Assembly (NCBI GenBank): GCA_012735435.1
Contig: JAAYHH010000011.1
Location: forward strand, 14,141-78,140
DNA from: Bacillota bacterium
GTDB lineage: Bacteria > Bacillota > Limnochordia > DTU087
DNA length: 64,000 bases
Reading direction: 5' to 3'
Shown here: positions 7,330-33,014 of the stretch, in pieces
Layout of the letters: each line of letters begins with the position of its first letter
How positions within the stretch are numbered: position 1 is the first letter of the stretch
Program-made: the position numbers and the translations under genes
The notes under the pieces: generated by a model
What the model saw: the letters and a program-made list of their open reading frames with translations, nothing else
Told to the model about the DNA's origin: nothing
The model's database searches: none

Positions 7330-7980
7330 CTATAGCTGTCTTCCGATCTTAGCCTTAATCCGGCAAAGGGCATTATCAATAGACTTGGTATGGGTACCCA
7401 GCTCTTCGGCCATCTCTTTGTAAGATAACCCGTTGATGTAAAGCTTGAAAACTCTGTACTCAAAATCACTGAGGACTTCTTTTATGTAGCGCTGAGTATG
7501 CTGAAGCCTTTCCCGATCGATAACCAGCGCTTCTGGATCATCTACCCTGTTGTTGGAGAGCACCTCCATCAGGGTTCGGTCTCCCTCGGCATCATAAATG
7601 GGTTTGTGTAAAGATGTGTACGAGTTAAGGGGGATATGCTTCTGCCTGGTAGTGCCCTTGATGGCACTGATAATATTGCGGGTGATGCACAGCTTGGCGA
7701 AGGACCAGAAAGATGAGGAACCTGGAGTAAAATCACGGATTGCCTTGTACAGCCCGATCATCCCTTCTTGCAAGAGATCATCATCCTCAGCTCCCTGCAA
7801 GAAGTAGGGTCGGGTCCATATGTAGACTAACTTCTGATACTTGTACAACAAGTAATCAACTGCATCTTGACGACCAGCCTGGGCTTGCTTCACGATGTCT
7901 TCATCAGGCAAATCCCGGAAGGCCTTGAACCCATCGAAATGATAGTTGAGCGGCAATGCACTACCCATGGACATGACCAC
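7330..7980 (-). CDS. sigH: RNA polymerase sigma-H (Spo0H)
   Basis: A long colinear match to Bacillus SigH as I recall it: QEGMIGLYKAIRDF...FAKLCITRNIISAIKGTTRQKHIPLNSYTSLHKPIYDAEGDRTLMEVL...KSIDNALCRIKAK. Confidence 0.85.
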   Translation of the reverse strand: MVMSMGSALPLNYHFDGFKAFRDLPDEDIVKQAQAGRQDAVDYLLYKYQKLVYIWTRPYFLQGAEDDDLLQEGMIGLYKAIRDFTPGSSSFWSFAKLCITRNIISAIKGTTRQKHIPLNSYTSLHKPIYDAEGDRTLMEVLSNNRVDDPEALVIDRERLQHTQRYIKEVLSDFEYRVFKLYINGLSYKEMAEELGTHTKSIDNALCRIKAKIGRQL

Positions 7981-8185
7981 TCCTTTGGCTCAAGAAAAAG
8001 AATGCTATGTTATCAATATCTACCAAATTGTACAATTCAACACAAGTACGGCAAATCCTTCAATCCAGCCGGAAAACGAAATATGCCCTTCCCGTCTCGT
8101 TCATCAGAACGCAGAACGGTAAGGGCATGTCACGGACAACTACTCTCTTTGGAGTAACACATATAACTCCAGCTTCGCCTCCTTT

Positions 8186-19831: not shown

Positions 19832-19906
19832 TGTTATCGGTCCCCCTCCCAAGATAGTGCTTCTGCAACGGTTCTGACGGCTCCTGCCCCGCTGAGCCGG
19901 CTTGCA

Positions 19907-19943
19907 GCAAAGAAAAATGCCTTGAGAGTTAATGTCTCAAGGC
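19907..19943 (-). terminator. rho-independent terminator after the PRC-barrel gene
   Basis: Minus sense GCCUUGAGA-CAUUAAC-UCUCAAGGC followed by AUUUUUCUUUGC. Confidence 0.7.
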
Positions 19944-20038
19944 CGGTTTATCACTGTATGGGCCTTTCGTGGCCTTTAAGATACTGTAATCCTTCGGTGC
20001 TCAAGAGAGGCATCGTCAGCAGTCAGGGCTGCGCCCCT

Positions 20039-20458
20039 TTAGTCGGAAATATCGGGCTCCCGGCCACTATGGATATAGGCAGCCTCCTCGATCCAGTAAG
20101 GGGTCTGTTCGATGATCCCATAAATCTCTTCCTCCTGAGCCCGGTCCAAGGGTTGGGTCAGGTTAGGCAGGGACAGGAACTTAACGGCGTCAATGCTGCA
20201 GAAAACTGCTTCACTGGTAATCTCTGTGACTGCATTGGCAGGTACCGGTACGTGGCGGCCGCTCTTGATGTCATAGACGATCAGGTAGCGGATGGTGTAC
20301 ATCTCAGGCTCTACAAGCTGGCGGACTATGCGCCCGCAGGGGATCTGATCCCGGCTTACAAGCTCCAGCTGCCATATTTCTCGATTGCCTACCTCCAACA
20401 GTGTCCCAGCCGGGACGACGCCTCCAGCTATATCCTTTGCCCCCTGCCGCTTCTCCAT
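20039..20458 (-). CDS. PRC-barrel domain protein
   Basis: A 139-aa ORF. The central VVSRDQIPCGRIVRQLVEPEMYTIRYLIVY pattern resembles PRC-barrel proteins. This is a family-level guess only. Confidence 0.5.
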   Translation of the reverse strand: MEKRQGAKDIAGGVVPAGTLLEVGNREIWQLELVSRDQIPCGRIVRQLVEPEMYTIRYLIVYDIKSGRHVPVPANAVTEITSEAVFCSIDAVKFLSLPNLTQPLDRAQEEEIYGIIEQTPYWIEEAAYIHSGREPDISD

Positions 20459-20487
20459 AGACTGTGCCTCCCTGCCTCAATACCTTC

Positions 20488-21813
20488 CTAGACCAGCTCA
20501 CCCACTAGACTCCAGGTTTGGGCTTCAGTGATCTTCACTCTAACCAGCTCCCCGGTTAAATCTTGACTGCCGGTAAACAGCACGGTTTTAGCTGTCCTGG
20601 TCTTGCCTGTCAGCATCTGGGCATCGCCCTTGCTTGTACCTTCCACCAGGACTTCCACTTCACTTCCCACCAGTGCTTGATTCCGCTCCAGGCTGATCTT
20701 GTTCTGGAGGTCTATCAGCTGGTAAATTCTCTCTTTCTTAACTTCCTCCGGCACCTGATCCGGCATATCTGTCGCCGGTGTACCCTTCCGGGGAGAATAG
20801 ATGAAGGTGAAGGCCGAATCAAATCCTACTTTCTCCACCAAGGAGAGGGTGTCGGCGAAATCGGCATCGGATTCACCGGGAAAACCAACCATGATGTCGG
20901 TAGTCAAGCTGATTCCCGGCACCTCTTGCCGTACCTTCTCTACTATTTCCAGATAATATTCCCGGGTATACCTCCTATTCATGCGCCGCAGCACATTGTT
21001 GCTTCCCGCCTGAACAGGAAGGTGAAGATGCTCGCATACCTTCTCCAAGCGGCCGAGCTGCTGGATCAGTTTGCCACTGATATCCTTGGGATGGGATGTG
21101 GTAAAGCGGATCCGTTGGATGCCTGGGACCCCATTAACCAGCTCCAAAAGATCGGCAAAATCGGTGTCGGACTGCAGATCCTTTCCATAGGAGTTCACAT
21201 TCTGACCCAACAGAGTTACCTCTTTAACGCCCCTAGCGGCCAGGCTCCGGATCTCATCCAAGATGGCCTCGGGGGTACGGCTGCGCTCCCTGCCACGGAC
21301 ATAGGGCACAATGCAGTAAGAGCAGAAGTTGTTGCATCCATGCATGATGGTGACAAAGGCCTTGAAATCGTTGTCCCGGAGCGCCGGTAGACCCTCAATT
21401 GGCTCGCCGGCGTCATCGAGAATCTCAACTACCCGTTCACCAGTTGTACATATCCTATGCAAGAGCTCCGGCAGCCGATGAATATTGTGGGTGCCAAAAA
21501 ACAGGTCCACATGGGGAAGACGCTCCAGCATCACCGGCAGTTCCTCTTTCTGCTGGGGCATGCAGCCGCAAATTCCGATGATCAGCCCAGGATTCTTATC
21601 CTTGAGCTCCTGCAGCTGGCCGACCTGTCCGTAGACCTTTCTCTCTGGGTTCTCCCTGACGCAGCAGGTATTGTATAAAATGAGATCGGCATCCTCCGGG
21701 CTGTCTGTAAAGCTGTAACCCTCTTGCTGAAGCAGCCCCCGGATGGTCTCAGTGTCCCGTTCGTTCATCTGGCAGCCAAAGGTACGAATATAGGCTAGGC
21801 GTTTTTCTACCAT
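20488..21813 (-). CDS. miaB: tRNA-2-methylthio-N6-dimethylallyladenosine synthase
   Basis: UPF0004 N-domain IRTFGCQMNERDTE, radical-SAM CNNFCSYCIVP, and a C-terminal TRAM domain. Start is ATG 21813. Confidence 0.9.
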   Translation of the reverse strand: MVEKRLAYIRTFGCQMNERDTETIRGLLQQEGYSFTDSPEDADLILYNTCCVRENPERKVYGQVGQLQELKDKNPGLIIGICGCMPQQKEELPVMLERLPHVDLFFGTHNIHRLPELLHRICTTGERVVEILDDAGEPIEGLPALRDNDFKAFVTIMHGCNNFCSYCIVPYVRGRERSRTPEAILDEIRSLAARGVKEVTLLGQNVNSYGKDLQSDTDFADLLELVNGVPGIQRIRFTTSHPKDISGKLIQQLGRLEKVCEHLHLPVQAGSNNVLRRMNRRYTREYYLEIVEKVRQEVPGISLTTDIMVGFPGESDADFADTLSLVEKVGFDSAFTFIYSPRKGTPATDMPDQVPEEVKKERIYQLIDLQNKISLERNQALVGSEVEVLVEGTSKGDAQMLTGKTRTAKTVLFTGSQDLTGELVRVKITEAQTWSLVGELV

Positions 21814-21968
21814 AGGCAATCGCCGCAGGAAAGCAGCACACTCTCCTTTCCAAACAACATCATAAGACACCAAGGCAGCAGGCTAGACGAGAGGTCTTCA
21901 CCCTCAAGTCTCCAGCTGCCCTTAGCTTGTCCACTTGTCTACACAGGTATCTGAATTGCCGTTACTCC

Positions 21969-24351: not shown

Positions 24352-25235
24352 TCTTGTACCCTCCAGTGACTCTGCATGAAGCGGCGGCCTAGGCTGGAAA
24401 TAGCCAGGGATAAGATCATAATCAACATGGCCATGGGAAAGAGTTCGGAATGGTGCCAGCCCAGCTCTGCTCCCATTACAATCGCCGTCGGCACGGTAAA
24501 CAGCCTGTGGTCCTGACTTGCCGTTAAGCTGCTTCTGGCAGCTGCTTGCCAGAGCATCAGGACGATAGCAGTATCCCCCATGGTTCTGCCCAAACCGAAA
24601 AATCCCGCAGCAGCAATACTGGATCTAGCCGCGGGATAGACAGTATAAACTATAGTCTGCCAACGGCTTGCACCTAGTGCGTAGGATGAAGCCCTTAGAG
24701 ATGGCGAAATTCGCCTGAAATGCTCGATCAAGAAGGATGCAAGAGAGGGATAAACCATCAGTGCCAGAAGAAGGGAAGCAGCTGGATATAGCCTTAGTGG
24801 GGATGTTCCTTGAGAAGACTCATAGTAACCGAGCCAAACCAGCCCGATAAATCCAATAACCACCGAAGGAACTGCGGATAACACTTTTATGGTAGTCCAG
24901 AACATCTTCGCCGGTTTGGAAGGTGCCAATTCGGTTATATATAAAGCAGAAAGAAGGCCGACGGGTAAGGCGACTACCACCGCTCCTGCGGCAATTACTA
25001 GAGAATTAACTACTGCCGTCAAAATCAAATCCAAATCCAGGTCCACCAAGAGTACGGAGCGAACGGCTCCTATGACTACAAAAATCACCACAGCAGCCAA
25101 CACCACGAGGGTTGCTGCGGTTGCTAGCTTAAGAATCGTCTCTGGGCCAAAACGAAATGTCTGACCAGTACTTGCCAGTTTCTCCTTGGTGCTTTCAATA
25201 CCCATGCTGACTCTATTCATACTGTCAGGGCACAA
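24348..25235 (-). CDS. pstC: phosphate ABC transporter permease PstC
   Basis: Permease with the loop SSYALGASRWQTIVYTVYPAARS. The start is uncertain because no good SD precedes any candidate start. Confidence 0.8.
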   Translation of the reverse strand: MCPDSMNRVSMGIESTKEKLASTGQTFRFGPETILKLATAATLVVLAAVVIFVVIGAVRSVLLVDLDLDLILTAVVNSLVIAAGAVVVALPVGLLSALYITELAPSKPAKMFWTTIKVLSAVPSVVIGFIGLVWLGYYESSQGTSPLRLYPAASLLLALMVYPSLASFLIEHFRRISPSLRASSYALGASRWQTIVYTVYPAARSSIAAAGFFGLGRTMGDTAIVLMLWQAAARSSLTASQDHRLFTVPTAIVMGAELGWHHSELFPMAMLIMILSLAISSLGRRFMQSHWRVQE

Positions 25236-25588
25236 ACCCAGGGGAGGTTACTGGGTCACGCCATGCCTCCTCTCGGGCCTACAGCAGCCGGGTTGGTAAG
25301 TAATCCAGCTGATATTAGCGGTCTATTGGAACCTGGCATTAGCTGCATAACTCTCAACAGTTAAAGGTGGCCCCCTACCTCACCAAAGGCCACTTACCTA
25401 CACTATTTAATTTTACCATGTTGGTGTTACCTGATTGTTACAAGCGTGCTAACTTCTCGTAACGGGGCAGTCGCCACTTCCATTCCATTTGGTTCAGGTT
25501 CCGTAAAATACATTCGCTTCTACCCCATCAAGGACCTGCCAAGATTTCCCCGAAGCAGGACTGGAAAATGGTTAACGGGCAGGCAATA

Positions 25589-25617
25589 TTGACAATTGTG
25601 GCCAGTCATGGTATATT
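25589..25617 (+). promoter_or_regulatory. strong sigma-A promoter with extended -10
   Basis: TTGACA (25589-25594), 17 nt spacer, TGgTATATT (-10 at 25612-25617). Confidence 0.65.
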
Positions 25618-25716
25618 AAAGATGAAAATAACGTGTATACAGGATACATGATGTGTAAGCGTTTGTAGGCGTTCGGATAGATGTCGGCGGGTAGATACTT
25701 TGAAAGGAGTGATCCC

Positions 25717-25887
25717 TTGATAATCTCTGTCGGCAACCGGGAGATTACTATCAAGGTCCGCGAACAGTCAAGACCGGAAATCGCGGAGAGAGTGTACCGT
25801 CAGCTCCTTAGGGAGAGAGAAGTTCAGAAGGATCGGGATGCTGCCTACGCCCGTCTGTTGTTTGGTCAGGGGATTCACTTAAACTAG
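25717..25887 (+). CDS. small hypothetical protein (56 aa)
   Basis: TTG 25717 is preceded by GAAAGGAG plus 7 nt. It is framed by a strong promoter about 100 nt upstream and a strong terminator downstream. Sequence: LIISVGNREITIKVREQSRPEIAERVYRQLLREREVQKDRDAAYARLLFGQGIHLN. Confidence 0.55.
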   Translation: MIISVGNREITIKVREQSRPEIAERVYRQLLREREVQKDRDAAYARLLFGQGIHLN

Positions 25888-25910
25888 ACCACTGCAAGCG
25901 TAACAGTATG

Positions 25911-25974
25911 AAAAAGCAAACTGCGATGCTATACCACTCAAGGTACAAGGCATCGCAGTTTGTTTATTCTTTAT
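25911..25974. terminator. bidirectional rho-independent terminator
   Basis: A 14-bp stem GCAAACTGCGATGC / GCATCGCAGTTTGT (25916-25929 and 25950-25963). It has TTATTCTTTAT on the plus side and AAAAA (U5 in minus sense) on the other. It closes both the small plus-strand gene and the minus-strand SLH gene. Confidence 0.75.
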
Positions 25975-26017
25975 GCAGCAAAAAGATTTCCAAGCTAGGT
26001 ATATGCACTCAGGCTAT

Positions 26018-27574
26018 TTAGTTTACAAACCCGATAATCAACGCCAGTACCGCTGCAATGGTTGCGATATTGGCGGCACTCTTAAGACTCTGATTCTGCT
26101 TCTCAGCATGGGTTCGGTAGCTGTCAAACTCATCCCGCAGCTCCTGCAGCTGCCGCTCCAGCCGCTGTTCCCGCATTAGGGCTGCATTGATCTGGGCAGA
26201 TGATTGTGTAATCACCCGCTCATCAACGGCTGCCAGGGCAGACTCTGTGGCGCTTACCCGCTCCTGCAGTATAGAAACAGCTGCCTGCAGCTCTTCAACG
26301 TAATCCTGCAGATCTGCAAGATCCTTGCTGTCAGCTGCTGCACCCTGCTGCAAGATATTGGTCCTCTTGTCTAAGGCAGCGATCTTCTGAGAAATATTTA
26401 CAAGGTCTGTCTGGACTGCCTCCAAACTCCTAACCAGGTCTTGACGCAGACCGCTGACATCCTTCATCAATTGCCCATCCGCGGCAGCCATAGCTTCTCC
26501 CTGTTTCAAGACTTGATCCTGGAGCGCCTGCACATCTTCGGCAAGTGCAGCCGTCTCCTCAGAGCGGGCAAGTCTTTCCTCCGCTACAGCCTGCTGCAGC
26601 TGTCCAATTTCAGCGGTTAGCTGATCATCCCTCTGGGCGGATTCTTCTTGCCAGCTGCTCAGCTCTTGCTCCATTTGGACAAGCTGCTGGACAACCTCAG
26701 ACAGGCCCTTTTCCACCCGACTGATCTCTTCTGCCAGTTCAGCATCGGCCTCTTGCATGGCGTTCTGCAGTAAGCTTAAAGCCGCATCCCGTTCCGCAAA
26801 GCTGCTCTGGACCTTTACACCCAAAGCCTCCTCCAGCGCTACTAGTGAGTCAGTGTGGAGTGCCAGCATCCGGGTGTGCTCATCTAACCTTGCTTCATTG
26901 GCTTCAACAGCGGCCTCGGTATCGGCCAGGGCTGCTGCCTGTTTGACAAGCTCATCCTCAAGGGCTTGAAGCTTACGGCCCTGGTCAGCAGCCTGCTGCC
27001 TAAGGTCTGCATCAGCAGCTTCGAGGCGCCGGGTGGTATCGGCAACCTGCTGCTGGAGGGCGGCAATTTCCGCCAATATGGCTGCTGCCTGCTCCTGTAT
27101 AGAGGTGCGGATAGCTGCATCTTCCTGCTCCATTGTGTCGATGACCTTAGTCACAGTCTCATCCATTACCTGAACACGACGCTGGGTTTCGGTAACGGAA
27201 GCTGACAGCTCTTCCCTTTGATTATACCACCGTACAAGTTCATCCCTAAACTCGGTAGAAAGTGTCCGGAGCAGTTCCAAATCCTCCTGAGTTACACCCA
27301 GCTGCCCTTTTTCGATGTCCACTAGGAGCCGGCCAACTACTGAAGCCAGCGTATACCTATCGACAGGTCTCTGACCTTGAAAAGTTCCATCGGTATAGAG
27401 AGCAAGATAACCTTCCTGGACTAACTTTTGAACACCCTCATAGGCCCAATGGTCTGCAGGCACATCGCTGATCTGCTGTGCAGTCTGCTGGGCAAAAACA
27501 AGATTCCCCTGACCTACCAACAGCAGCAAAAACAGTAGTACAACTCCTATTCTTCGAATTGTCCTCGACTCCAT
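26018..27574 (-). CDS. SLH-domain, long coiled-coil, C-terminally membrane-anchored protein (Omp-alpha-like architecture)
   Basis: Signal peptide ending LVFAQQ. One SLH motif (DVPADHWAYEGVQKLVQEGYLALYTDGTFQGQRPVDRYTLA). About 390 aa of Ala/Gln/Glu/Leu-rich heptad-like sequence. Terminal hydrophobic tail IATIAAVLALIIGFVN. Confidence 0.75.
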   Translation of the reverse strand: MESRTIRRIGVVLLFLLLLVGQGNLVFAQQTAQQISDVPADHWAYEGVQKLVQEGYLALYTDGTFQGQRPVDRYTLASVVGRLLVDIEKGQLGVTQEDLELLRTLSTEFRDELVRWYNQREELSASVTETQRRVQVMDETVTKVIDTMEQEDAAIRTSIQEQAAAILAEIAALQQQVADTTRRLEAADADLRQQAADQGRKLQALEDELVKQAAALADTEAAVEANEARLDEHTRMLALHTDSLVALEEALGVKVQSSFAERDAALSLLQNAMQEADAELAEEISRVEKGLSEVVQQLVQMEQELSSWQEESAQRDDQLTAEIGQLQQAVAEERLARSEETAALAEDVQALQDQVLKQGEAMAAADGQLMKDVSGLRQDLVRSLEAVQTDLVNISQKIAALDKRTNILQQGAAADSKDLADLQDYVEELQAAVSILQERVSATESALAAVDERVITQSSAQINAALMREQRLERQLQELRDEFDSYRTHAEKQNQSLKSAANIATIAAVLALIIGFVN

Positions 27575-27630
27575 TTCCTCCCGCCCCCTGTCAATCTTCT
27601 TTGCTCCTCAGTGTTTTCCCAGCACCTTTG

Positions 27631-29664
27631 TTACCTGGCAACAGTAACCGGCAGTTCCATGGGTCCCAATTCGATCACCTGTCCACTGGTGGTGGTCAGC
27701 TTGGTACCCAGCAGCTGGATGACACCGGTGCCTTCAGCGCCTGCCACAAACCGGATTGAACACAGGTTACCTGTCAATCGACTGGGTCCCAGCTGTGAAA
27801 GCCCCCGGAGTTTCACCTGGATAATGCCCTGTGACGGCTGCAGCTCCACCTCCATCGGAGCGGCATCTCCCACGGCAGCCGATAGAGGTGCCAGGACCTC
27901 GCCCCGCTCTACTCCAAGGCGGCCGCCGGCTACCCGCATCAGGTCCACTGGAAACTTAAGCAAGAACTCTGCCTCTTCGATGTTCTTCAGATTATAGCCC
28001 CTTATGGCCGTCTTCATAGGCCCTCCCACAACAGCGGGGCCTGTCCCCTCTGCGATGAGTCTGATCATTTGGGGAAGCTGCGGTATGCTGATAAATTCAT
28101 TTACAATCAGCGGTTCGGTGGCACCGGACTCCACCCTCACCGAATAGGGCAGGCTGTCACTGGCCACATCGGTTGGGGTTAAGAACCACTGAACCACAAT
28201 GGACTCCTGTGGACCGAGATCTCCGCAGAGTTTAGTCCGCCCCTCACCAGGGGCCAGCTGAAGCCCCAAGGGTGCCTGCCATTGGGCATGAACCCACGGT
28301 GCATTCATTTCACCGACATTGGTGATGGTGGCCCTAACGGCAAAGGGTACCGGCTGCAGACTTCCATCTTCAACTAAGAGACGGGGCGGTGCGGAGATTT
28401 TCACCTGCAGTTCGGCAGGTTTGGCGATCCTAACTTGCCGCCGCACCCGGTTGGGCTCACTGTTGGCAGCTTCAACCTTTACTTCGTAGCTGATTTCACC
28501 TCTAATATGGTCAGCCACTTCCACTTGCCAGGCCAGCTGTACTGACTCTCCCACTTCCAAATTACCCAGGCTGCCGCCGGCCTCCTGTCCAGGAACCAGG
28601 GACAAGCCGCTGGGCAGTTCAATGGCTATCCTAACATCCCTAGCCTCACCTTCGCCGCTGTTCTCCAGATAGGCGACAATCGGGAACCTTGTCGGTCCGT
28701 CGGGGGCGTGGGAGACTACAGCAGGTGATGTGACTCCCAAGGAAAGCTTTCCGGGAGCAATGGTTATACCGCCAAGCCCGTAGTAAGTTACCCAAGTAAC
28801 GCTCTCGCCGGGACCGAGGGTGACCGGATCCCAAAACATAGCAATCGCCGAATCCAGCTCAAATTCACCCTTCCGGAGGAAAATGCGGCCAGGGTCAAAA
28901 TCAAAATCCCAGATGCTCTCTGCCAAAGCTCCCCAGTTGCTGAAGTACACCCGATCAGGCGGGGTTACCCCTGAACCCCGCAGGGTTCCCTGGGACATAA
29001 CCTGGGGATCGGCCAGGGAGTCGAATGCCTGCCAAAACTCCGGTATAGCTCCTCCGGTAAACAATGTATCGGTAGTAACAGCCTGCTGCTCTACCCTAAA
29101 GGGGGCACCGTCATTGGCGCCCAACATAGTATCCAGCATAAGCCGCATGGCTACGCTGTGGGAAACAGAATCCTCATTGGTCAAAGTATAGGCAATCCGG
29201 GCTGTATCTTGCAGACCAGTGGTGCTGCTTCGGGTAAAGCTGAGGATCTGCTCCGCTTTCACCGGCCCTAGTTTATATACAGTGCTGATGGCATTTCCCT
29301 GGATAACTTCGGGTCCTGAGATCAGCTCCCCGAATGGTCCTTGTCTTCCAGCGGAGGTCTGTGTCGGACCGCCAAATACATAGTTGCGACCGTCTATTTG
29401 GATCGTGGTGTAAGAAGTCCAAGGATCGGCCATGCCGTAAACTAAGGGTTTGTTTTCATCACCGATCCGGTCAGGATCTCCGCCGGTGGTGTTGATGGAG
29501 AACCGGCCGGTGTTTTCTTCGCCTCCGTTGACAATGATGGAAATGTATTCATTGGCGACAATGATATTGCTGCCGACGTTACCTTCGACCATAGCCCGGG
29601 CCTTCTCTACTTCACAGCTAATCAACATGACCGCAGCCAGGGCAATTGCCAACCAGCGCCGCAT
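27631..29664 (-). CDS. exported (possibly lipidated) 677-aa multidomain protein
   Basis: Signal MRRWLAIALAAVMLISC (lipobox-like LISC), or an AxA site KARA/M. It has an unrecognised ~300-aa N-domain. Two Ig/CARDB-like modules follow (IVAYLENSGEGEARDVRIAIELPSGL; VRATITNVGEMNAPWV). The C-terminal beta-sandwich resembles a cohesin (AEFLLKFPVDLMRV...GNLCSIRFVAGAEGTGVIQL). Confidence 0.7.
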   Translation of the reverse strand: MRRWLAIALAAVMLISCEVEKARAMVEGNVGSNIIVANEYISIIVNGGEENTGRFSINTTGGDPDRIGDENKPLVYGMADPWTSYTTIQIDGRNYVFGGPTQTSAGRQGPFGELISGPEVIQGNAISTVYKLGPVKAEQILSFTRSSTTGLQDTARIAYTLTNEDSVSHSVAMRLMLDTMLGANDGAPFRVEQQAVTTDTLFTGGAIPEFWQAFDSLADPQVMSQGTLRGSGVTPPDRVYFSNWGALAESIWDFDFDPGRIFLRKGEFELDSAIAMFWDPVTLGPGESVTWVTYYGLGGITIAPGKLSLGVTSPAVVSHAPDGPTRFPIVAYLENSGEGEARDVRIAIELPSGLSLVPGQEAGGSLGNLEVGESVQLAWQVEVADHIRGEISYEVKVEAANSEPNRVRRQVRIAKPAELQVKISAPPRLLVEDGSLQPVPFAVRATITNVGEMNAPWVHAQWQAPLGLQLAPGEGRTKLCGDLGPQESIVVQWFLTPTDVASDSLPYSVRVESGATEPLIVNEFISIPQLPQMIRLIAEGTGPAVVGGPMKTAIRGYNLKNIEEAEFLLKFPVDLMRVAGGRLGVERGEVLAPLSAAVGDAAPMEVELQPSQGIIQVKLRGLSQLGPSRLTGNLCSIRFVAGAEGTGVIQLLGTKLTTTSGQVIELGPMELPVTVAR

Positions 29665-29720
29665 TAATCACCAGCCCCCTAACTGTAGTATCGTTTCATT
29701 GGCGATCTATCGAGGAGCCA

Positions 29721-30647
29721 CTACTCGTTCCGGACATACCTGACACCATCGTAAAGAATCGATACCCTAAACTCCGGCGGACCGCTGAAGGAGACAGTTA
29801 CCGTCAGAATATAATCCTCCAGCAGCGGCTCCATTCGCCATCCGTTCTGGATAGTTAAGCTTGCTACCTGGTCTAGGCTTGCTGCCCCGGAAGACTGGAT
29901 GATGTCAATCCGGGTTGCTCTAGTAGACCCCTTGGGGACATAGGCATCCAGCTTCACAGTGCCTGCCAAGCCCTCGTTAATTGCATTCTTGGGGTACTGA
30001 ATCCGGCCACCGCCTGCTACCAGAGTGCTTGCCGCCGGCAGTGGAGGCAGTGGCGGTGGCGAAGGTGGTGTCGGTTCTGCCTCTTCATCGCTTTCTGTCT
30101 CGGATGAAGAACCGCCTGGTTCGCCGGCAGGGGCAGAATCGCCTCCAGCCATGACAGCATCTTGACCTTGCTCGCTGGTCAGGATTTGCTCCCCATTGCT
30201 GTCAGGCTGCGATAGAGCCTCTTCACTGGCTGCCGGATCCGGCTCAGGTTCAGGCTCAGGCACTACCCTGGTGTCAGGAGTCTTAACTTCCTCTTGGGGA
30301 GCCGGGGTCGTCTCCTGCGGCTTTGGTGCTGGCTCCGGTTCAGTCTTGGTTACCTCGGCCTTGGCAGTTTCAACCGGTTCCGGTTCTTCCTTCGGTGGCG
30401 TGGGTTCCTGACGACGGGGAGTTTGCTGCTGCGGCTGCTGCCTGACCGCTTGGGTTCTAGGCGCTGGCTGCTGGACCTCTACGGGTACAACAGAAATAAT
30501 ACCGCCGCCAGGACCTGCAAAAAGGCCGGGTCCAACCGCAAATTCCCAGCGGGGAAAGACAAAGAACAGCATTGCGTGAAGGATAAGCGAAATCAAGACA
30601 AAGGCTCCAAAGGAGCGGTCTGACTCATCTCCTGTATACATTGCCAC
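29721..30647 (-). CDS. TonB/TolA-type energy-transducing protein
   Basis: N-terminal TM with the SxxxH motif (FVLISLILHAMLFF). About 150 aa of Pro/Glu/Lys/Thr-rich spacer (EPEPEPDP, PPSPPPLPPLP). TonB_C-like end YPKNAINEGLAGTVKLDAYV...IIQSSGAASLDQVA. Confidence 0.75.
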   Translation of the reverse strand: MAMYTGDESDRSFGAFVLISLILHAMLFFVFPRWEFAVGPGLFAGPGGGIISVVPVEVQQPAPRTQAVRQQPQQQTPRRQEPTPPKEEPEPVETAKAEVTKTEPEPAPKPQETTPAPQEEVKTPDTRVVPEPEPEPDPAASEEALSQPDSNGEQILTSEQGQDAVMAGGDSAPAGEPGGSSSETESDEEAEPTPPSPPPLPPLPAASTLVAGGGRIQYPKNAINEGLAGTVKLDAYVPKGSTRATRIDIIQSSGAASLDQVASLTIQNGWRMEPLLEDYILTVTVSFSGPPEFRVSILYDGVRYVRNE

Positions 30648-30691
30648 ACCACCTCCCCTCGGATTTGGCTGACGCCAAAGGGTGTACCATG

Positions 30692-31105
30692 CTACCTGCC
30701 CCGGGGTTCAACTGCAAGGCCAAAGCGATATCCTCCCAGCTGCCGAACAACATCCATTACTTGAACTATATAATCATAGCGAGCCTCCCGGTCAGCTTTA
30801 ATGACGACAAAAAGGTCCGGCCTTTTCTCCAATGCTTTGCCGACCTCTGACCTTAGAGTATTACTACTGACCTGACGCTCACCCAAGAACATCCGTCCAT
30901 CTTTAGCTACAGAAATGGTGATCTGGCTGCTGGCTTGTCTGTCCCAACTTGCCGCCTTGGGCAGTTCAAGATTCAATCCTGCTGGATGGGTCTTAAAGGT
31001 CGTAGCCAGCATGAAGAACACCAAAACAGAAAAAATAATATCAACCAGCGGCACTATTTGAATCGTTGGCTTTTTGTTGCGGACAGAGCGGCGGGCTATC
31101 ATCAC
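30692..31105 (-). CDS. exbD: ExbD/TolR family proton-channel subunit
   Basis: A 137-aa protein. Its single TM carries the conserved Asp (IVPLVDIIFSVLVFFM), followed by a periplasmic domain (VVIKADREARYDYIVQVMD). It overlaps exbB by 4 nt. Confidence 0.85.
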   Translation of the reverse strand: MMIARRSVRNKKPTIQIVPLVDIIFSVLVFFMLATTFKTHPAGLNLELPKAASWDRQASSQITISVAKDGRMFLGERQVSSNTLRSEVGKALEKRPDLFVVIKADREARYDYIVQVMDVVRQLGGYRFGLAVEPRGR

Positions 31106-31716
31106 ACATCACCCCTCGCCTCAAAGATGGCCAACAGCTCCGAAGAGCGTTTGTTGATATCAACCACTAGGCGGTCGATTAATCCCGAAAGGTAAGAATA
31201 AATCAGAGTACCCGGAATGGCGATTACTAAGCCGGTTGCAGTTGTAATTAGGGCTTCTGCAATTCCTGTGCTTAAGGCAAGGGTATCATCTAAGCCGCCA
31301 ACCGCTGAAATCACTTGAAAACTATTGATAATACCTGTTACTGTACCTAAGAGACCAAGCAACGGTGCAGCGGTGATGATTGCATCGAGAAGTCCCAGCC
31401 GGCGTTCCATACGGAAGACCTCTTCATAGGCCACTTCTTCCAAGCGCTCTCGGATAAACTGCTTGTCCTTATCATAATGGGCTATCCCCGCCGCCAGTAC
31501 AGCCGCAACCGGGCCTCTGGTTTTCTTTGCTATCTGGATAGCTTCCAGGATTTTGCCTTGCTGAAGAGCCAGTTTAATGTCATCCATCAAATCCTCTGTA
31601 TCTACTCGACAGCGAAGCAAGTAGACCAGCCTTTCGAGAGAGACAGCTACCATCAATACAGAGCAAAGCAGCAACGGGATCATTACCGGGCCGCCCCGAA
31701 TGATCAAATCCAGCAT
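31102..31716 (-). CDS. exbB: MotA/TolQ/ExbB family proton-channel subunit
   Basis: Three TM spans and the conserved C-terminal half AAPLLGLLGTVTGIINSF...GIAEALITTATGLVIAIP. ATG 31716 follows GGAGG plus 8 nt; the track ORF starts at 31743. Confidence 0.85.
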   Translation of the reverse strand: MLDLIIRGGPVMIPLLLCSVLMVAVSLERLVYLLRCRVDTEDLMDDIKLALQQGKILEAIQIAKKTRGPVAAVLAAGIAHYDKDKQFIRERLEEVAYEEVFRMERRLGLLDAIITAAPLLGLLGTVTGIINSFQVISAVGGLDDTLALSTGIAEALITTATGLVIAIPGTLIYSYLSGLIDRLVVDINKRSSELLAIFEARGDV

Positions 31717-31756
31717 TCTATATACCTCCACTCCGTCCCACATTCATTGGGTAAGA

Positions 31757-31783
31757 CTATTCGACAATCAGGTACCATATCCT
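31757..31783 (-). promoter_or_regulatory. candidate sigma-H type promoter for the exbB operon
   Basis: Minus strand GAAGGATAT (-35, RNAGGAWWW), then 14 nt, then GTCGAATAG (-10, RNNGAATWW). The AGGA-to-GAAT distance of 21 nt matches my recollection of the spoVG promoter. The -10 overlaps Spo0A box 1. Confidence 0.35.
31760..31766 (-). promoter_or_regulatory. Spo0A-box heptamer 1
   Basis: Minus strand TGTCGAA, a perfect 0A-box core, in the context TTGTCGAATA. Confidence 0.4.
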
Positions 31784-31865
31784 TCCTGGCTATTCCCTTG
31801 AGAAACTCCCACGAGAATTTCCTCTAAAGGCCTACGTGCTTCCCTGATTTTCCCCTCTTGGCATT

Positions 31866-31872
31866 TTCGACA
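31866..31872 (-). promoter_or_regulatory. Spo0A-box heptamer 2
   Basis: Minus strand TGTCGAA in the context TTGTCGAAAA. It has the same orientation as box 1 and lies 106 bp upstream of it. Confidence 0.4.
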
Positions 31873-31931
31873 AGGCAAGAGACAACTCCTGCCGTCAAAA
31901 GTCCATCTGAAACAAAGAAAGACGTGGATAT

Positions 31932-31960
31932 GAATAGGGAAATGTCCCCAGGATATGCTA
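31932..31960 (+). promoter_or_regulatory. candidate forespore (sigma-G/F type) promoter for the SASP gene
   Basis: GAATA (GHATR), 17 nt spacer, TATGCTA (consensus CATXHTA, first base mismatched). It lies about 30 nt before the start codon. Confidence 0.35.
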
Positions 31961-31985
31961 CCATCAAGATGCTTTTCGACGGGAG

Positions 31986-32213
31986 ATGGGATCTATAATG
32001 GATAGGGAATTAGAAGCAGTTCGGGATCGAGCCATGGACCAGCTCAAGCATGATTTAATAAAAGAGATGGGCTTGTGGGACCTAGTGCAGACCGAAGGCT
32101 GGGGAGCACTGCCGGCCAAGGACTGCGGCCGTATCGGTGGGAAGATGGCAACGAGGCTCAGCCCCAACATCCTCCGGAAAATAGCTGACATGAGCCAAAC
32201 ACAGGGCAAGTAG
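31986..32213 (+). CDS. alpha/beta-type small acid-soluble spore protein
   Basis: LKHDLIKEMGL...ALPAKDCGRIGGKMATRL follows the two conserved SASP blocks (LKxExAxExG and TxxxxGxVGGxxxKRL). The start could be ATG 31986 or ATG 31998. Confidence 0.75.
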   Translation: MGSIMDRELEAVRDRAMDQLKHDLIKEMGLWDLVQTEGWGALPAKDCGRIGGKMATRLSPNILRKIADMSQTQGK

Positions 32214-32234
32214 GAAGCGGGCTGTTGATGGCAA

Positions 32235-32266
32235 CAAAAAAGGCGGTGACCCTGTCGTCTACCGCC
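32235..32266 (-). terminator. terminator after the acetyltransferase gene
   Basis: Minus sense GGCGGU-AGACGACAGGGUC-ACCGCC followed by UUUUUUG. Confidence 0.55.
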
Positions 32267-32278
32267 CTGGGGATCTTC

Positions 32279-32845
32279 TCAGCCTGCCAAGAGCCTGTAC
32301 TGGGGATGAATTTCATAAAATTCGTCTCTTAGGATGCGCATCAAATAGATTTCCCTCAGCTCCTCGGAACTCCGTGTTCGAATGAGCTTACCCTCTTTCT
32401 TAAATCCGGCCTTCTCATAACAGCGAATCGCAGGGCGATTGGTGCTGGCGACACGCAAGTATACGCGGGAAAGCTTCATTTCACCAAAGGCATAACACAG
32501 GAGGGCTGTAACGCTCTCCAATCCATAACCTTTTCCCCGATAATCACCTTCGCCGATGCGGATTCGAAGCTCTGCATCGCCGCTGCGCCAGGCAATGTGG
32601 TCTAACTCAATATCACCGATGGGAACTCCATTTCGGGTGGTAATTACCAGCCGTCGGATATGGCGGTTGCTGCGCTGTTTTTCATACCACTCCTGACAAT
32701 CCGCCAGGGTTTCAGGATAACCATCATCCTCCATATAATGTCCTACTTCTGGGTCCTTGGTCCATTTAACTATCTCGGGAAAATCCGACGGCATAATCGG
32801 CCGGAGGATGATCCTCTCCCCTTCAATTTTCATGTCTGCTGCCAC
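32279..32845 (-). CDS. GNAT family N-acetyltransferase (RimJ/RimL-like)
   Basis: ILRPIMPSDFPEIVKW...RIRIGEGDYRGKGYGLESVTALLCYAF...NRPAIRCYEKAGFKKEG (acetyl-CoA binding R/Q-x-x-G-x-G/A). Confidence 0.8.
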   Translation of the reverse strand: MAADMKIEGERIILRPIMPSDFPEIVKWTKDPEVGHYMEDDGYPETLADCQEWYEKQRSNRHIRRLVITTRNGVPIGDIELDHIAWRSGDAELRIRIGEGDYRGKGYGLESVTALLCYAFGEMKLSRVYLRVASTNRPAIRCYEKAGFKKEGKLIRTRSSEELREIYLMRILRDEFYEIHPQYRLLAG

Positions 32846-33014
32846 CTCTTTGCCTACAGCATCTGCTGCGTTGTTTAAGCCGCGAAATCTGGTTCGTCTA
32901 CAGTTACTAGCGGGCGATTCCTAAGTTAAGGCTTCTACTTAGATTTCTACTTAATCAGAGCCTAACCTTTAGGCAATAGCAGCCAGTCATGCCACGTGAC
33001 AGCAAAGGTGACAA

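What the first reader, a model, noticed from the sequence alone, without database searches (positions are those of the whole stretch)
26018..31872. Five-gene exbB-exbD-tonB + 677-aa exported protein + SLH/coiled-coil anchor operon with Tol-Pal-like logic and no TonB-dependent receptor
Seen: five co-directional minus-strand genes are separated by a 4-nt overlap and gaps of 44, 56 and 56 nt. I see no hairpin/U-tract between them. A regulatory region lies upstream (31757-31872) and a strong bidirectional terminator lies downstream (25911-25974). The products are: (a) a MotA/TolQ/ExbB channel subunit; (b) an ExbD/TolR with the TM Asp (PLVDIIF); (c) a TonB/TolA-type protein with the SxxxH TM motif (SLILH), a ~150-aa Pro/Glu/Lys spacer and a TonB_C-like end; (d) a 677-aa exported, possibly lipidated, multidomain protein; (e) a protein with a signal peptide, one SLH wall-binding motif, ~390 aa of coiled coil and a C-terminal membrane tail. 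No beta-barrel TonB-dependent transporter gene is in or beside the cluster. Established: proteobacterial tolQ-tolR-tolA-tolB-pal has the same order of roles: motor, motor, envelope-spanning transducer, soluble partner, peptidoglycan-binding anchor. Inference: this may be a non-homologous analogue in which an SLH tether stands in for Pal and the 677-aa protein for TolB. It would couple proton-motive force to the wall/S-layer or, in a spore former, to the double-membrane forespore envelope. I cannot tell from this window whether the host is monoderm or diderm.
Basis: partly seen in the sequence, partly recalled or inferred. Interest (0 to 1): 0.8.

Follow-up and report, generated by a model that had tools for sequence, protein, structure and literature searches.

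The report
Orphan TonB motor operon with wall tether
Two lineages of double-membraned Firmicutes, which published surveys say lack the usual TonB-dependent import channels, share a five-gene operon for a proton-driven TonB-type motor, a secreted sugar-binding-type protein and a wall-binding coiled-coil tether, so it is a candidate counterpart of the Tol-Pal envelope system in bacteria that lack Tol-Pal.

Summary
The five minus-strand genes (26018-31743) are exbB, exbD, a true tonB-family gene, a 677-aa secreted protein and an SLH/coiled-coil/C-terminal-helix protein.

- **Conservation:** relatives of the 677-aa protein occur in 389 species genomes. In the 80 loci fetched (Limnochordia-type MAGs and Halanaerobiales), the five-gene order holds wherever the contig reaches.
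- **Transcription:** one conserved promoter lies upstream of exbB and none lies inside the operon. It matches the sigma-H consensus perfectly, and a sigH gene lies in the same window.
- **677-aa protein:** it is not a lipoprotein. It has a galactose-mutarotase-like head with no Pfam or NCBIfam family hit, then Ig-like domains and a cohesin-like end.
- **SLH protein:** it is a barrel-less OmpM/SlpA stalk with a helical membrane tail, the Thermotoga Omp-alpha architecture.
- **No receptor:** there is no TonB-dependent receptor in the window, and the literature reports none in Halothermothrix orenii.

Best reading: a receptor-independent, proton-driven envelope machine acting on the wall-to-membrane linkage, switched on at transition phase or sporulation. 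It is not homologous to TolA, TolB or Pal, so "Tol-Pal-like" is at most a functional analogy. I found no paper describing the operon as a unit.

The parts
31759..31785 (-). Sigma-H-type promoter, GAAGGATAT-N11-GTCGAAT. The -10 element ends about 43 nt upstream of the probable exbB start.
   Evidence: It matches RNAGGAWWW-N11-RNNGAAT at 13 of 13 positions. Only 3 such sites exist in the 64 kb on both strands, and one of the others lies upstream of sigH itself. The AGGA[AT]-N14-16-CGAA motif is present upstream of exbB in 56 of 66 related loci against a 1.8% random expectation. The consensus is taken from PMC8510167.
31866..31890 (-). Second, weaker sigma-H-like element, AGGAGTT-N-TGTCGAA, 106 nt upstream of the first.
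   Evidence: Regex hit. Its conservation was not examined.
31102..31743 (-). exbB: MotA/TolQ/ExbB proton-channel subunit. The ORF is 213 aa; the probable true start is ATG 31716, giving 204 aa.
   Evidence: PF01618 2e-32. It falls below the equivalog cut-offs of both TolQ and ExbB. Distant orthologues align from about residue 10. An independent gene call gives 204 aa.
30692..31105 (-). exbD: ExbD/TolR subunit, 137 aa, with the transmembrane Asp (PLVDIIF). It overlaps exbB by 4 nt.
   Evidence: PF02472 3e-28. Sequence read.
29721..30647 (-). tonB-family transducer, 308 aa: N-terminal transmembrane segment with SxxxH (SLILH), a Pro/Glu/Lys-rich spacer of about 150 aa, and a TonB_C domain at residues 216-294.
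   Evidence: PF03544 5e-9. S20, H24, YPKNA and SSG..LD are at least 90% conserved across 61 orthologues. The best PDB sequence matches are TonB C-domains, but only at E about 0.3.
29593..29664 (-). p677 signal peptide, residues 1-24, with a probable SPase-I site ARA|M.
   Evidence: N-termini of 25 family members were compared. The Cys is not conserved and AxA-type sites are common.
28765..29592 (-). p677 N-terminal domain, residues 25-300: galactose-mutarotase-like beta-supersandwich with no Pfam or NCBIfam hit. It is the most conserved part of the protein.
28084..28752 (-). p677 middle region, residues about 305-527: two Ig-like (NEW3/CARDB/DUF11-type) beta-sandwich domains.
   Evidence: PF10633 6e-6 and DUF11 1e-3. 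AF2 full model pLDDT 86.5. Foldseek hits are to Ig-domain arrays.
27631..28077 (-). p677 C-terminal cohesin-like domain, residues about 530-677, plus the stop codon.
   Evidence: PF00963 Cohesin is recorded for many orthologues. Foldseek matches the type II cohesin dyad 3l8q at 3e-9.
27320..27574 (-). SLH protein N-terminus: signal peptide (residues 1-28) and a single SLH motif (about 35-85) of OmpM/SlpA type.
   Evidence: PF00395 1e-7. PDB sequence hits: D. radiodurans SlpA 7zgx 2e-10, covering SLH plus stalk, and V. parvula OmpM 8bz2/8bys/8bym about 1e-9. NCBIfam por_somb N-terminus 2.6e-10.
26093..27319 (-). SLH protein coiled-coil rod, residues about 86-494.
   Evidence: SMC- and Rad50-type coiled-coil matches. 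Total protein length across orthologues varies from 223 to 1447 aa.
26018..26092 (-). SLH protein C-terminal hydrophobic tail (NIATIAAVLALIIGFV) plus the stop codon.
   Evidence: A basic residue followed by a hydrophobic tail of about 20 aa ends essentially every complete orthologue.
25905..25965 (.). Bidirectional intrinsic terminator closing the operon.
   Evidence: RNA fold -32.4 kcal/mol, z = -5.4, followed by UUUUU. An A-tract on the other side serves the convergent small ORF.

Best explanation
This is a single sigma-H-driven operon for a receptor-independent Ton/Tol-type envelope machine. It is found in the LPS-outer-membrane Firmicutes Limnochordia and Halanaerobiales.

**Shown.**
- ExbB, ExbD and the TonB-family protein carry the motifs of a working proton-driven inner-membrane motor with a periplasm-spanning arm.
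- The 677-aa protein is Sec-exported. It has a strongly conserved galactose-mutarotase-like head, two Ig-like domains and a cohesin-like end.
- The last protein is a barrel-less OmpM/SlpA stalk: an SLH wall-binding domain, a coiled coil and a helical membrane tail.
- The five genes are inherited as one block with one conserved promoter.

**Inferred.**
- The SLH protein forms a trimeric tether between peptidoglycan (or its secondary polymer) and a membrane.
- The 677-aa protein stays in the periplasm and binds a conserved envelope glycan or the tether.
- The TonB C-domain pulls on one of these two instead of on a TonB-dependent transporter.
- Proton-motive force is thereby used to set, release or reposition wall-to-membrane attachments when cells leave exponential growth or begin sporulation.

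This is what Tol-Pal does in Gracilicutes, but it is done here with unrelated parts.
For: - **Parts.** Domains and motifs.
- **Conserved block.** Relatives occur in 389 species genomes. The order exbB-exbD-tonB-p677-SLH holds in all 80 fetched loci where the contig allows. It also holds in H. orenii and H. praevalens, where the genes abut or overlap.
- **One promoter.** A conserved promoter lies upstream of exbB in 56 of 66 loci, and in 0 of 58-78 loci upstream of each of the other four genes. There is no terminator in the gaps and a strong terminator after the fifth gene.
- **Sigma-H.** The promoter is a perfect sigma-H consensus. sigH is in the window with the same promoter type upstream. 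The spoIIA promoters in the same loci have the same form.
- **No receptor.** None in the window. [quoted passage not shown] Among Firmicutes, Ton systems were detected only in Negativicutes, and Tol-Pal only in Gracilicutes.
- **Tether.** The SLH N-terminus is homologous to the OmpM/SlpA tether stalks. The signal peptide, SLH, coiled coil and tail architecture is universal in the family.
- **p677 head.** It is far more conserved (53-64% identity) than the whole protein (42-47%). That fits a periplasmic partner with a conserved ligand better than an exposed surface protein.
Against: - There is no direct evidence for any protein-protein contact.
- The mature N-terminus of p677 is a strand built into the domain, so it is not a free TolB-like or TonB-box-like tail.
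- TonB length does not scale with tether length (rho = -0.15). The tether length varies sixfold, which is odd for a periplasmic ruler.
- Which membrane holds the helical tail is unknown. Sec stop-transfer would predict the inner membrane.
- Absence of TonB-dependent receptors in this host and in Limnochordia rests on the literature, not on a search done here.
- The host's outer membrane is inferred from relatives only.
- Sigma-H dependence is a sequence match, not an experiment. H. praevalens lacks the motif.
Confidence: 0.5

Rival explanations
1. The operon is a sporulation-specific machine. The products are made in the pre-divisional or sporulating cell. The helix-anchored SLH tether is inserted by Sec into the mother-cell inner membrane, which becomes the outer spore membrane. 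It ties that inner-membrane-like membrane to cortex or germ-cell-wall peptidoglycan until BamA and OmpM arrive at germination. The motor and p677 remodel this linkage during engulfment, cortex formation or germination.
For: - The promoter is sigma-H type, like that of spoIIA.
- The operon sits next to dacF-spoIIAA-spoIIAB-sigF in Limnochordia, to spoVS-spmA-spmB in Halanaerobiales and to spoVAC/D/E in L084.
- A SleB-type cortex-lytic hydrolase gene follows directly in Halanaerobiales.
- In Acetonema spores the outer spore membrane is inner-membrane-like and lacks BamA and OmpM (PMC13018214). A helical anchor would solve the tethering problem there.
- The helical tail is topologically natural for an inner-membrane-derived membrane.
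Against: - Halanaerobium praevalens retains the operon and the SleB-like gene. I recall this genus as described as non-sporulating; I did not check that here.
- Sigma-H also drives transition-phase and division genes (from memory).
- The neighbouring spo genes belong to a macro-synteny that I recall as ancestral in Firmicutes: spoVS ... miaB-mutSL in B. subtilis (from memory; compare).
- No operon homologue surfaced from Negativicutes, which include sporulating diderms. That search was not exhaustive.
Confidence: 0.22
2. It is an ordinary Ton nutrient-uptake system. Its outer-membrane receptors are elsewhere in the genome or too divergent to recognise. The two downstream genes are merely linked envelope proteins.
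For: - The TonB protein has every canonical TonB feature, including a TonB_C domain with the YP motif.
- The H. orenii authors allowed that the receptors might be too divergent to detect.
Against: - Five-gene linkage persists over two classes at about 40% identity, with overlapping or abutting genes.
- There is one conserved promoter.
- The promoter is sigma-H type. Whether an iron- or nutrient-responsive operator is also present was not looked for.
- Two independent reports find no receptors.
Confidence: 0.13
3. It is a surface-display or S-layer-type system, as the database name 'cellulosome anchor protein' implies. p677 would be a cohesin-bearing surface scaffold held on the cell by the SLH protein. 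The motor would export or mount it across the outer membrane.
For: - Cohesin and Ig-like domains are present.
- The N-domain also heads RHS-repeat and PKD/Ig-array proteins elsewhere, as adhesin-like heads do.
- SLH proteins anchor surface structures in monoderm Firmicutes (established knowledge).
Against: - p677 itself has no SLH, and no dockerin partner was seen.
- The N-domain is unusually conserved for an exposed protein.
- The SLH module is of the periplasmic OmpM/SlpA stalk type.
- The host groups are not known as cellulosome producers (from memory).
Confidence: 0.1

Closest known systems
Tol-Pal system of Gracilicutes (tolQ-tolR-tolA-tolB-pal, with ybgC and cpoB)
   Same: - The order of roles is the same: proton channel, stator, envelope-spanning transducer, soluble periplasmic protein, peptidoglycan-binding membrane-attached protein, all in one operon.
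- The ExbB and ExbD homologues score slightly better against the TolQ and TolR models than against the ExbB and ExbD models.
- There is no TonB-dependent receptor partner.
   Different: - Only the motor is homologous.
- The transducer has a TonB_C domain, not a TolA C-domain.
- The soluble protein is a galactose-mutarotase-like, Ig and cohesin protein, not a beta-propeller, and it has no free N-terminal TolA-box.
- The anchor is an SLH, coiled-coil and helix protein, not an OmpA-like lipoprotein.
- The promoter is sigma-H type.
- It occurs in Terrabacteria, where Tol-Pal is reported absent.
Canonical Ton system (ExbB-ExbD-TonB plus TonB-dependent transporters)
   Same: All three inner-membrane components carry their hallmark motifs: the ExbD transmembrane Asp, and the TonB SxxxH, Pro-rich spacer and TonB_C domain.
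   Different: - There is no transporter in the window or in the inspected relatives. None was detected in H. orenii, nor in diderm Firmicutes other than Negativicutes.
- The motor genes are fixed in an operon with two non-transporter envelope proteins.
Omp-alpha of Thermotogae, and the OmpM/SlpA tethers of diderm Terrabacteria
   Same: - The single N-terminal SLH followed by a coiled-coil stalk shows sequence homology to SlpA (7zgx) and V. parvula OmpM.
- As in Omp-alpha, there is no beta-barrel, and a long rod ends in a hydrophobic C-terminal segment.
   Different: - OmpM and SlpA end in a porin barrel. Omp-alpha pairs with a barrel gene, Omp-beta, and is reported only for Thermotogae, Bipolaricaulota and Fraserbacteria.
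- Here the partner genes are a TonB motor and p677.
- Rod length ranges from about 100 to about 1300 residues.
- Sequence homology to Thermotoga Omp-alpha itself was not tested.
Other receptor-independent uses of ExbBD/TolQR-type motors (from memory, not tested here): the PocAB-TonB3 complex of Pseudomonas aeruginosa and the Agl-Glt gliding machinery of Myxococcus with its TonB-like GltG/GltJ
   Same: A TonB-family arm is coupled to an ExbBD/TolQR-type motor for a job other than nutrient import.
   Different: The partner proteins, phyla and outputs (polar localisation, gliding) are unrelated. None of these involves an SLH tether or a galactose-mutarotase-like protein.

Membership tests
Ton system | ExbB (MotA_ExbB family) and ExbD with a transmembrane Asp | tested here: met
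   PF01618 2e-32 and PF02472 3e-28. PLVDIIF lies in the transmembrane segment.
Ton system | TonB with an SxxxH transmembrane motif, a Pro-rich spacer and a TonB_C domain | tested here: met
   PF03544 5e-9. S20, H24, YPKNA and SSG..LD are at least 90% conserved in 61 orthologues.
Ton system | A TonB-dependent transporter (22-strand barrel with plug and TonB box) as the partner | tested here: inconclusive
   None in the 64-kb window or in the annotated flanks of L081, L082 and L084. The literature reports none in H. orenii or in diderm Firmicutes other than Negativicutes. The host's whole genome could not be searched.
Tol-Pal system | TolQ and TolR equivalogs | tested here: not met
   TIGR02796 tolQ scores 94.6 bits against a cut-off of 221. 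TIGR02801 tolR scores 73.2 against 127.3. The proteins belong to the superfamily only.
Tol-Pal system | TolA with a TolA-type C-terminal domain | tested here: not met
   The C-terminus is TonB_C with the YP motif. The tolA_full model hits only the N-terminal region, at 22.6 bits against a cut-off of 59.
Tol-Pal system | TolB (beta-propeller with an N-terminal TolA-binding strand) | tested here: not met
   p677 is a galactose-mutarotase-like supersandwich with Ig-like and cohesin-like domains. Its first strand is part of the fold.
Tol-Pal system | Pal (an OmpA-like peptidoglycan-binding outer-membrane lipoprotein) | tested here: not met
   The fifth protein has SLH, a coiled coil and a C-terminal helix. 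It has no lipobox and no OmpA domain.
OmpM/SlpA tether superfamily | A single N-terminal SLH domain followed by a coiled-coil stalk | tested here: met
   Sequence hits to SlpA 7zgx at 2e-10, over SLH plus about 150 aa of stalk, and to OmpM 8bz2/8bys/8bym at about 1e-9.
OmpM/SlpA tether superfamily | A C-terminal outer-membrane beta-barrel | tested here: not met
   The protein ends in coiled coil and one hydrophobic helix of about 20 aa. This holds in all complete orthologues.
Omp-alpha type tether (Thermotogae) | SLH, a long coiled-coil rod and a C-terminal hydrophobic segment, with no barrel | tested here: met
   The architecture was read in the window protein and in about 70 orthologues.
Omp-alpha type tether (Thermotogae) | An adjacent beta-barrel partner gene (Omp-beta), and sequence homology to T. 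maritima Omp-alpha | not tested
   No barrel gene is adjacent in the window. No Thermotoga sequence was available for comparison.
Cellulosome anchoring scaffoldin (the name given in databases) | Cohesin module(s) plus SLH repeats on the same protein, with dockerin-bearing partners | tested here: not met
   p677 has a cohesin-like C-domain but no SLH. No dockerin was seen in the operon.
Sigma-H (Spo0H) regulon | A promoter matching RNAGGAWWW-N11-12-RNNGAATWW, with sigH present in the genome | tested here: met
   A 13 of 13 match at 31785-31759. sigH lies at 7330-7980, scoring 260 bits against a cut-off of 208. The motif is conserved in 56 of 66 loci and in H. orenii.
Sigma-H (Spo0H) regulon | Transcription that depends on sigH in vivo | not testable with these tools
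   This needs 5' end mapping and a sigH mutant or in-vitro transcription.

The most novel reading that the evidence does not exclude
The operon would be the Terrabacterial counterpart of Tol-Pal. It would be an ancestral Firmicutes machine in which a TonB arm, powered by ExbBD, acts on a glycan-binding periplasmic protein and on a helix-anchored OmpM-like tether.

Its job would be to attach an inner-membrane-derived membrane to peptidoglycan and to re-position that attachment. That membrane could be the outer spore membrane, or the nascent outer membrane at division. The machine would have been lost together with the outer membrane in monoderm Firmicutes.

If so, it would also be a second, independent recruitment of a TonB paralogue for envelope maintenance, alongside TolA.
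Probability: 0.25. Interest if true: 0.9.

Novelty: new variant of a known kind. Interest (0 to 1): 0.74.

Why it matters
- **An open question becomes testable.** Diderm Terrabacteria are reported to lack Tol-Pal, Lpp and Pal, and to tether their outer membrane with OmpM. It is not known how they spend energy at the outer membrane for tether management, constriction, or the inner-to-outer membrane conversion seen in sporulating diderm Firmicutes.
- **An old puzzle gains a candidate answer.** The 2009 H. orenii genome paper noted an ExbB-ExbD-TonB set with no receptors. This work shows that set is the front half of a five-gene, single-promoter operon conserved in two of the three diderm Firmicutes lineages. 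That gives concrete candidate clients (p677 and the Omp-alpha-like tether) and a regulatory handle (sigma-H).
- **It bears on envelope evolution.** The operon lies upstream of miaB-mutS in both lineages. I recall the same spoVS ... miaB-mutSL block from B. subtilis. This is compatible with vertical inheritance and loss in monoderms, which speaks to the diderm-first view of Firmicutes.
- **It flags a large unnamed domain family.** The p677 head has a galactose-mutarotase-like fold, matches no Pfam or NCBIfam family, and finds 3298 representative proteins.

Tried and rejected
1. **Lipoprotein status of p677: rejected.** The Cys is not conserved, and the family has SPase-I type signal peptides.
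2. **A free TonB-box or TolA-box at the mature N-terminus of p677 (conserved I.NEYI.I.VN): rejected.** These strands are part of the N-domain fold, with pLDDT above 90.
3. **Foldseek of the full 677-aa model against PDB: uninformative.** It returned only strings of Ig-like domains (integrin legs, PrgB, a cohesin dyad). The N-domain had to be modelled alone.
4. **AFDB50 fold search: unavailable on the machine**.
5. **Co-scaling of TonB spacer length and tether rod length, as a sign that both span the same gap: none.** Spearman rho = -0.15, p = 0.26, n = 61.
6. **Riboswitch or known RNA in the 490-nt leader and the rest of 25200-32900: none at E <= 1**.
7. **A sigma-A promoter upstream of exbB: none found** by the consensus scan on the minus strand.
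8. **Reading the conserved TGTCGAA as a Spo0A 0A-box rather than a -10 element: less likely, overlap not excluded.**
   - AGGA lies at a fixed 16-nt spacing.
   - The Halanaerobiaceae version is GTAGAAT, which I recall does not fit the 0A box.
   - The sigH and spoIIA promoters have the same form.
9. **A Negativicutes homologue: not found.** The only Negativicutes hit (Sporomusaceae FL31) is an ordinary OmpM in the lpx/lpt cluster.
10. **Taxonomy of distant N-domain relatives through cluster look-up: almost no names returned**.
11. **Locus L084: uninformative for the motor.** The exbBD region falls in a 100-N scaffold gap.
12. **Literature searches for the operon as a unit: nothing beyond the 2009 H. 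orenii remark.** Terms covered Limnochordia or Halanaerobiales with TonB, diderm Firmicutes with ExbB and SLH, and Terrabacteria with ExbD.

Full report
**1. The observation**

Five co-directional minus-strand ORFs sit exactly where reported:

| Gene | Coordinates | Length |
|---|---|---|
| exbB | 31102-31743 | 213 aa |
| exbD | 30692-31105 | 137 aa |
| tonB-like | 29721-30647 | 308 aa |
| p677 | 27631-29664 | 677 aa |
| SLH protein | 26018-27574 | 518 aa |

- exbB and exbD overlap by 4 nt. The other gaps are 44, 56 and 56 nt.
- Each gap carries a G-rich ribosome-binding site and no hairpin with a U-tract. The gap regions do not fold unusually well (z = +0.5, +1.7, -1.9).
- Pfam confirms MotA_ExbB (2e-32), ExbD (3e-28), TonB_C (5e-9) and SLH (1e-7). 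p677 gets only a weak NEW3/DUF11 Ig-like hit.
- NCBIfam places the motor proteins between TolQ/TolR and ExbB/ExbD, below every equivalog cut-off.
- The hairpin at 25905-25965 folds at -32.4 kcal/mol (z = -5.4) and is followed by UUUUU. A small convergent ORF uses it from the other side.
- A weaker terminator-like hairpin follows the upstream GNAT gene at about 32232-32266 (read). The operon is therefore bracketed.
- Pfam annotation of essentially all sizeable ORFs shows a housekeeping and sporulation chromosome segment:
  - dxr, rseP, ispG, proS, polC, nusA-infB, pnp and spoIIM;
  - deoB, pdp, dacF, spoIIAA-AB-sigF and the GNAT gene upstream of the operon;
  - pstCAB-phoU, miaB, mutS, mutL, miaA, spoVK-like, sigH and lexA downstream of it.
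- No TonB-dependent receptor and no outer-membrane biogenesis gene lies in the window.

**2. Corrections to the observation**

- The Cys in the p677 signal peptide is not conserved. The family has ordinary AxA-type cleavage sites, so lipidation is not supported.
- ExbB most likely starts at ATG 31716:
  - GGAGG lies 8 nt upstream.
  - Distant orthologues align from about residue 10.
  - The promoter's -10 element ends at 31759.
  - The gene call on the source contig (ENA ERZ2647954, NODE_130, 104,642 bp) is 204 aa.

**3. Conservation**

- A degenerate-pattern scan of one genome per GTDB species found 389 loci encoding p677 relatives. The best 80 were fetched.
- tblastn with the window's proteins shows exbB-exbD-tonB-p677-SLH in that order in every locus whose contig extends far enough, down to about 40% p677 identity.
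- Most loci are "Bacillota", "Limnochordia" or "Limnochordales" MAGs. In these, dacF-spoIIAA-spoIIAB-sigF-GNAT also precedes the operon.
- Three loci are Halanaerobiales (Orenia metallireducens, Halanaerobacter, Halanaerobiaceae).
- A second protein search seeded with the Orenia protein found the family in many cultured Halanaerobiales genera:
  - Orenia, Halanaerocella, Halanaerobaculum, Halanaerobacter and Natroniella;
  - Halonatronum, Selenihalanaerobacter, Sporohalobacter and Fuchsiella;
  - Halanaerobium and Halothermothrix.
- In the closed H. orenii genome the arrangement is spoVS-spmA-spmB-PHP-x-exbB-exbD-tonB-p660-SLH(255 aa)-SleB-like hydrolase.
- In H. praevalens it is spoVS-[two-component system]-exbB-exbD-tonB-p662-SLH-SleB-like ... 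miaB-mutS.
- In Halanaerobiales the genes abut or overlap.
- The only Negativicutes hit was an ordinary OmpM inside the lpx/lpt cluster.

**4. The promoter**

- Aligning the 300 nt upstream of exbB across loci revealed a bipartite motif, cAAGGAtt-N11/12-tGTCGAA, 46-55 nt before the start codon in most loci. GTCGAA is present in 59 of 65 upstream regions, against 7% of random 300-nt windows.
- As the regex AGGA[AT]-N14-16-CGAA, it is present upstream of exbB in 56 of 66 loci, against a 1.8% random expectation. It is present in 0 of 58-78 loci upstream of each of exbD, tonB, p677 and the SLH gene.
- H. orenii has GCAGGAAAA-N11-GTCGAAT. A Halanaerobiaceae MAG has AAAGGAATT-N11-GTAGAAT.
- This is the sigma-H consensus, RNAGGAWWW and RNNGAATWW, as quoted in PMC8510167.
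- In the whole 64-kb window, both strands, only three sites match all 13 specified positions:
  - one 55 nt upstream of a gene that NCBIfam identifies as sigH (7330-7980; 260 bits against a cut-off of 208);
  - one upstream of exbB (31785-31759);
  - one inside rseP.
- The spoIIA promoters of the same loci have the same form (GCAGGAAttt-N11/12-nCGAAa). spoIIA is a classic sigma-H target in Bacillus (from memory).
- No sigma-A-like promoter was found upstream of exbB, and no Rfam family in the region.
- H. praevalens lacks the motif and instead has a two-component system directly upstream.
- Conclusion: in this window the operon has a sigma-H-type promoter. In vivo dependence on sigma-H is inferred.

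**5. The 677-aa protein**

- AlphaFold2 with a 25-sequence alignment gives an all-beta model with pLDDT 86.5.
- Searching the whole model returns only Ig-domain strings and a cohesin dyad.
- This head has no Pfam or NCBIfam hit. It has about 70 invariant residues rich in D, N, R and W.
- The head is 53-64% identical across lineages whose full proteins are 42-47% identical.
- A profile of the head finds 3298 representatives of 50%-identity clusters, 927 of them at E <= 1e-30. In some of the more distant relatives it heads RHS-repeat, PKD, Ig or Listeria-Bacteroides-repeat proteins.
- The fold is typical of carbohydrate-binding or carbohydrate-processing modules. I infer glycan binding; this is not shown.
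- Two Ig-like domains and a cohesin-like domain follow. PF00963 is recorded for many orthologues. This explains the misleading database name "cellulosome anchor protein".

**6. The SLH protein**

- Its N-terminus matches, by sequence, D. radiodurans SlpA (7zgx; 2e-10, over the SLH and about 150 residues of stalk) and V. parvula OmpM1-3 (about 1e-9). It also matches the N-terminus of the cyanobacterial SomB porin model.
- These are the peptidoglycan-to-outer-membrane tethers of diderm Terrabacteria.
- Instead of a beta-barrel, the protein continues as coiled coil and ends in a basic residue plus a hydrophobic tail of about 20 residues.
- This architecture is found in all complete orthologues, with total lengths from 223 aa (Halanaerobiales) to 1447 aa.
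- It is the Omp-alpha architecture, so far described for Thermotogae, Bipolaricaulota and Fraserbacteria.
- Which membrane takes the tail cannot be decided from sequence.

**7. The motor has no known client**

- The TonB-family protein keeps S20 and H24 (the SxxxH motif), YPKNA and SSG..LD in at least 90% of 61 orthologues. It is a TonB, not a TolA.
- The H. orenii genome paper reports ExbB, ExbD and TonB together and no receptors of the TonB-dependent family. The authors suggested a different function, or receptors too divergent to detect (PMC2626281).
- A 2025 survey states that, among Firmicutes, Ton systems (tonB plus transporter) were detected only in Negativicutes, and that Tol-Pal is confined to Gracilicutes (PMC12204202).
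- I could not search the host genome myself.

**8. Interpretation**

- Five proteins are inherited as a block across two classes, with one promoter and one terminator. They combine an energised inner-membrane arm, a conserved periplasmic glycan-type binder and an OmpM-like wall tether.
- This is best explained as one machine that spends proton-motive force on the wall-to-membrane linkage.
- It works like Tol-Pal in outline but fails every Tol-Pal membership test beyond the motor superfamily (see the membership table). The tether resembles Omp-alpha or Braun's lipoprotein more than Pal.
- Several facts pull towards a role at the onset of sporulation:
  - the sigma-H promoter;
  - the SleB-type hydrolase downstream in Halanaerobiales;
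  - the neighbouring spo genes;
  - the report that the outer spore membrane of a diderm Firmicute is inner-membrane-like and lacks BamA and OmpM until germination (PMC13018214).
- Against a strictly sporulation-specific role:
  - Halanaerobium retains the operon, and I recall that genus as described as non-sporulating.
  - The spo neighbours belong to a block I recall as ancestral (spoVS ... miaB-mutSL in B. subtilis).
- I therefore rank a general "transition-phase envelope machine" first (0.5) and the sporulation-specific version second (0.22). The ordinary Ton reading gets 0.13 and surface display 0.1.

**9. Negative results that limit the model**

- There is no free N-terminal TonB-box-like tail on p677.
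- TonB length does not correlate with tether length.
- The host's diderm status rests on shared synteny with MAGs labelled Limnochordia and on the literature.

**10. Novelty**

- The orphan ExbBD-TonB of H. orenii was noted in 2009.
- I found no paper that links it to the two downstream genes, to Limnochordia, to an Omp-alpha-like tether in Firmicutes or to sigma-H.
- The searchable library lacks many subscription-journal papers, so this absence is not proof.
- I rate the finding a new variant of a known kind: a Ton/Tol-type motor system with a new client set.

Noticed in passing
window 7330-7980 (-) and 8035-8061 (-): A sigH orthologue (216 aa; NCBIfam SigH 260 bits against a cut-off of 208) has a perfect sigma-H consensus promoter (GAAGGATTT-N11-GTTGAAT) 55 nt upstream. 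This suggests autoregulation. It is one of only three perfect consensus sites in the 64 kb.
   Followed up: partly
window 25589-25900 (+): A small plus-strand ORF of about 56-58 aa (RBS GAAAGGAG, TTG start) has no assigned function. It follows a near-consensus sigma-A promoter (TTGACA-17-TATATT with TG, 25589-25617) and converges on the operon's bidirectional terminator. It is also called as a 56-aa gene on the source contig.
   Followed up: no
window 31744-32232: The intergenic leader upstream of exbB is unusually long, about 490 nt. This is specific to the closest relatives (L001-L011); other Limnochordia have about 180 nt. It holds a second sigma-H-like element at 31866-31890 and no Rfam match.
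   Followed up: partly
L081 12786-13379; L082 12788-13372; L080 12586-13209: In Halanaerobiales a SleB-type spore cortex-lytic hydrolase gene (Hydrolase_2; TIGR02869 173 bits, below its cut-off) follows the SLH gene within 4-70 nt, probably as a sixth operon member. It is absent at this position in the window.
   Followed up: partly
window 17120-21873 compared with L082 19679-21989: miaB-mutS(-mutL) lies downstream of the operon both in this window and in H. praevalens. spoVS or the sigF operon lies upstream. I recall the same block in B. subtilis, which would suggest vertical inheritance and loss in monoderms.
   Followed up: partly
L082 5757-7831: In Halanaerobium praevalens an OmpR-type response regulator and a histidine kinase sit directly upstream of exbB, in place of spmA/spmB. 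The sigma-H motif is missing there, which may mean the operon's control has been rewired.
   Followed up: no
The exbBD position falls in a 100-N scaffold gap.
   Followed up: partly
p677 residues 25-300 (window 28765-29592); proteins P0409, P0422-P0424, P0415: The galactose-mutarotase-like head is a large family that matches no Pfam or NCBIfam model (3298 representative proteins). It also occurs at the N-terminus of RHS-repeat, PKD/Ig-array and Listeria-Bacteroides-repeat proteins, including MAGs labelled Pseudomonadota and Thorarchaeota. It is a candidate for a new domain family.
   Followed up: partly
L026, L027, L044 (SLH gene downstream of p677): Some Limnochordia orthologues of the SLH tether are 888-1447 aa long, which implies coiled coils of more than 100 nm. 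Halanaerobiales versions are only 223-255 aa. No explanation was found for this sixfold range.
   Followed up: partly
window 62439-62466 (-): A third perfect sigma-H consensus site lies inside the rseP (M50 protease) coding sequence, 369 nt upstream of ispG. It may be chance or an internal promoter.
   Followed up: no
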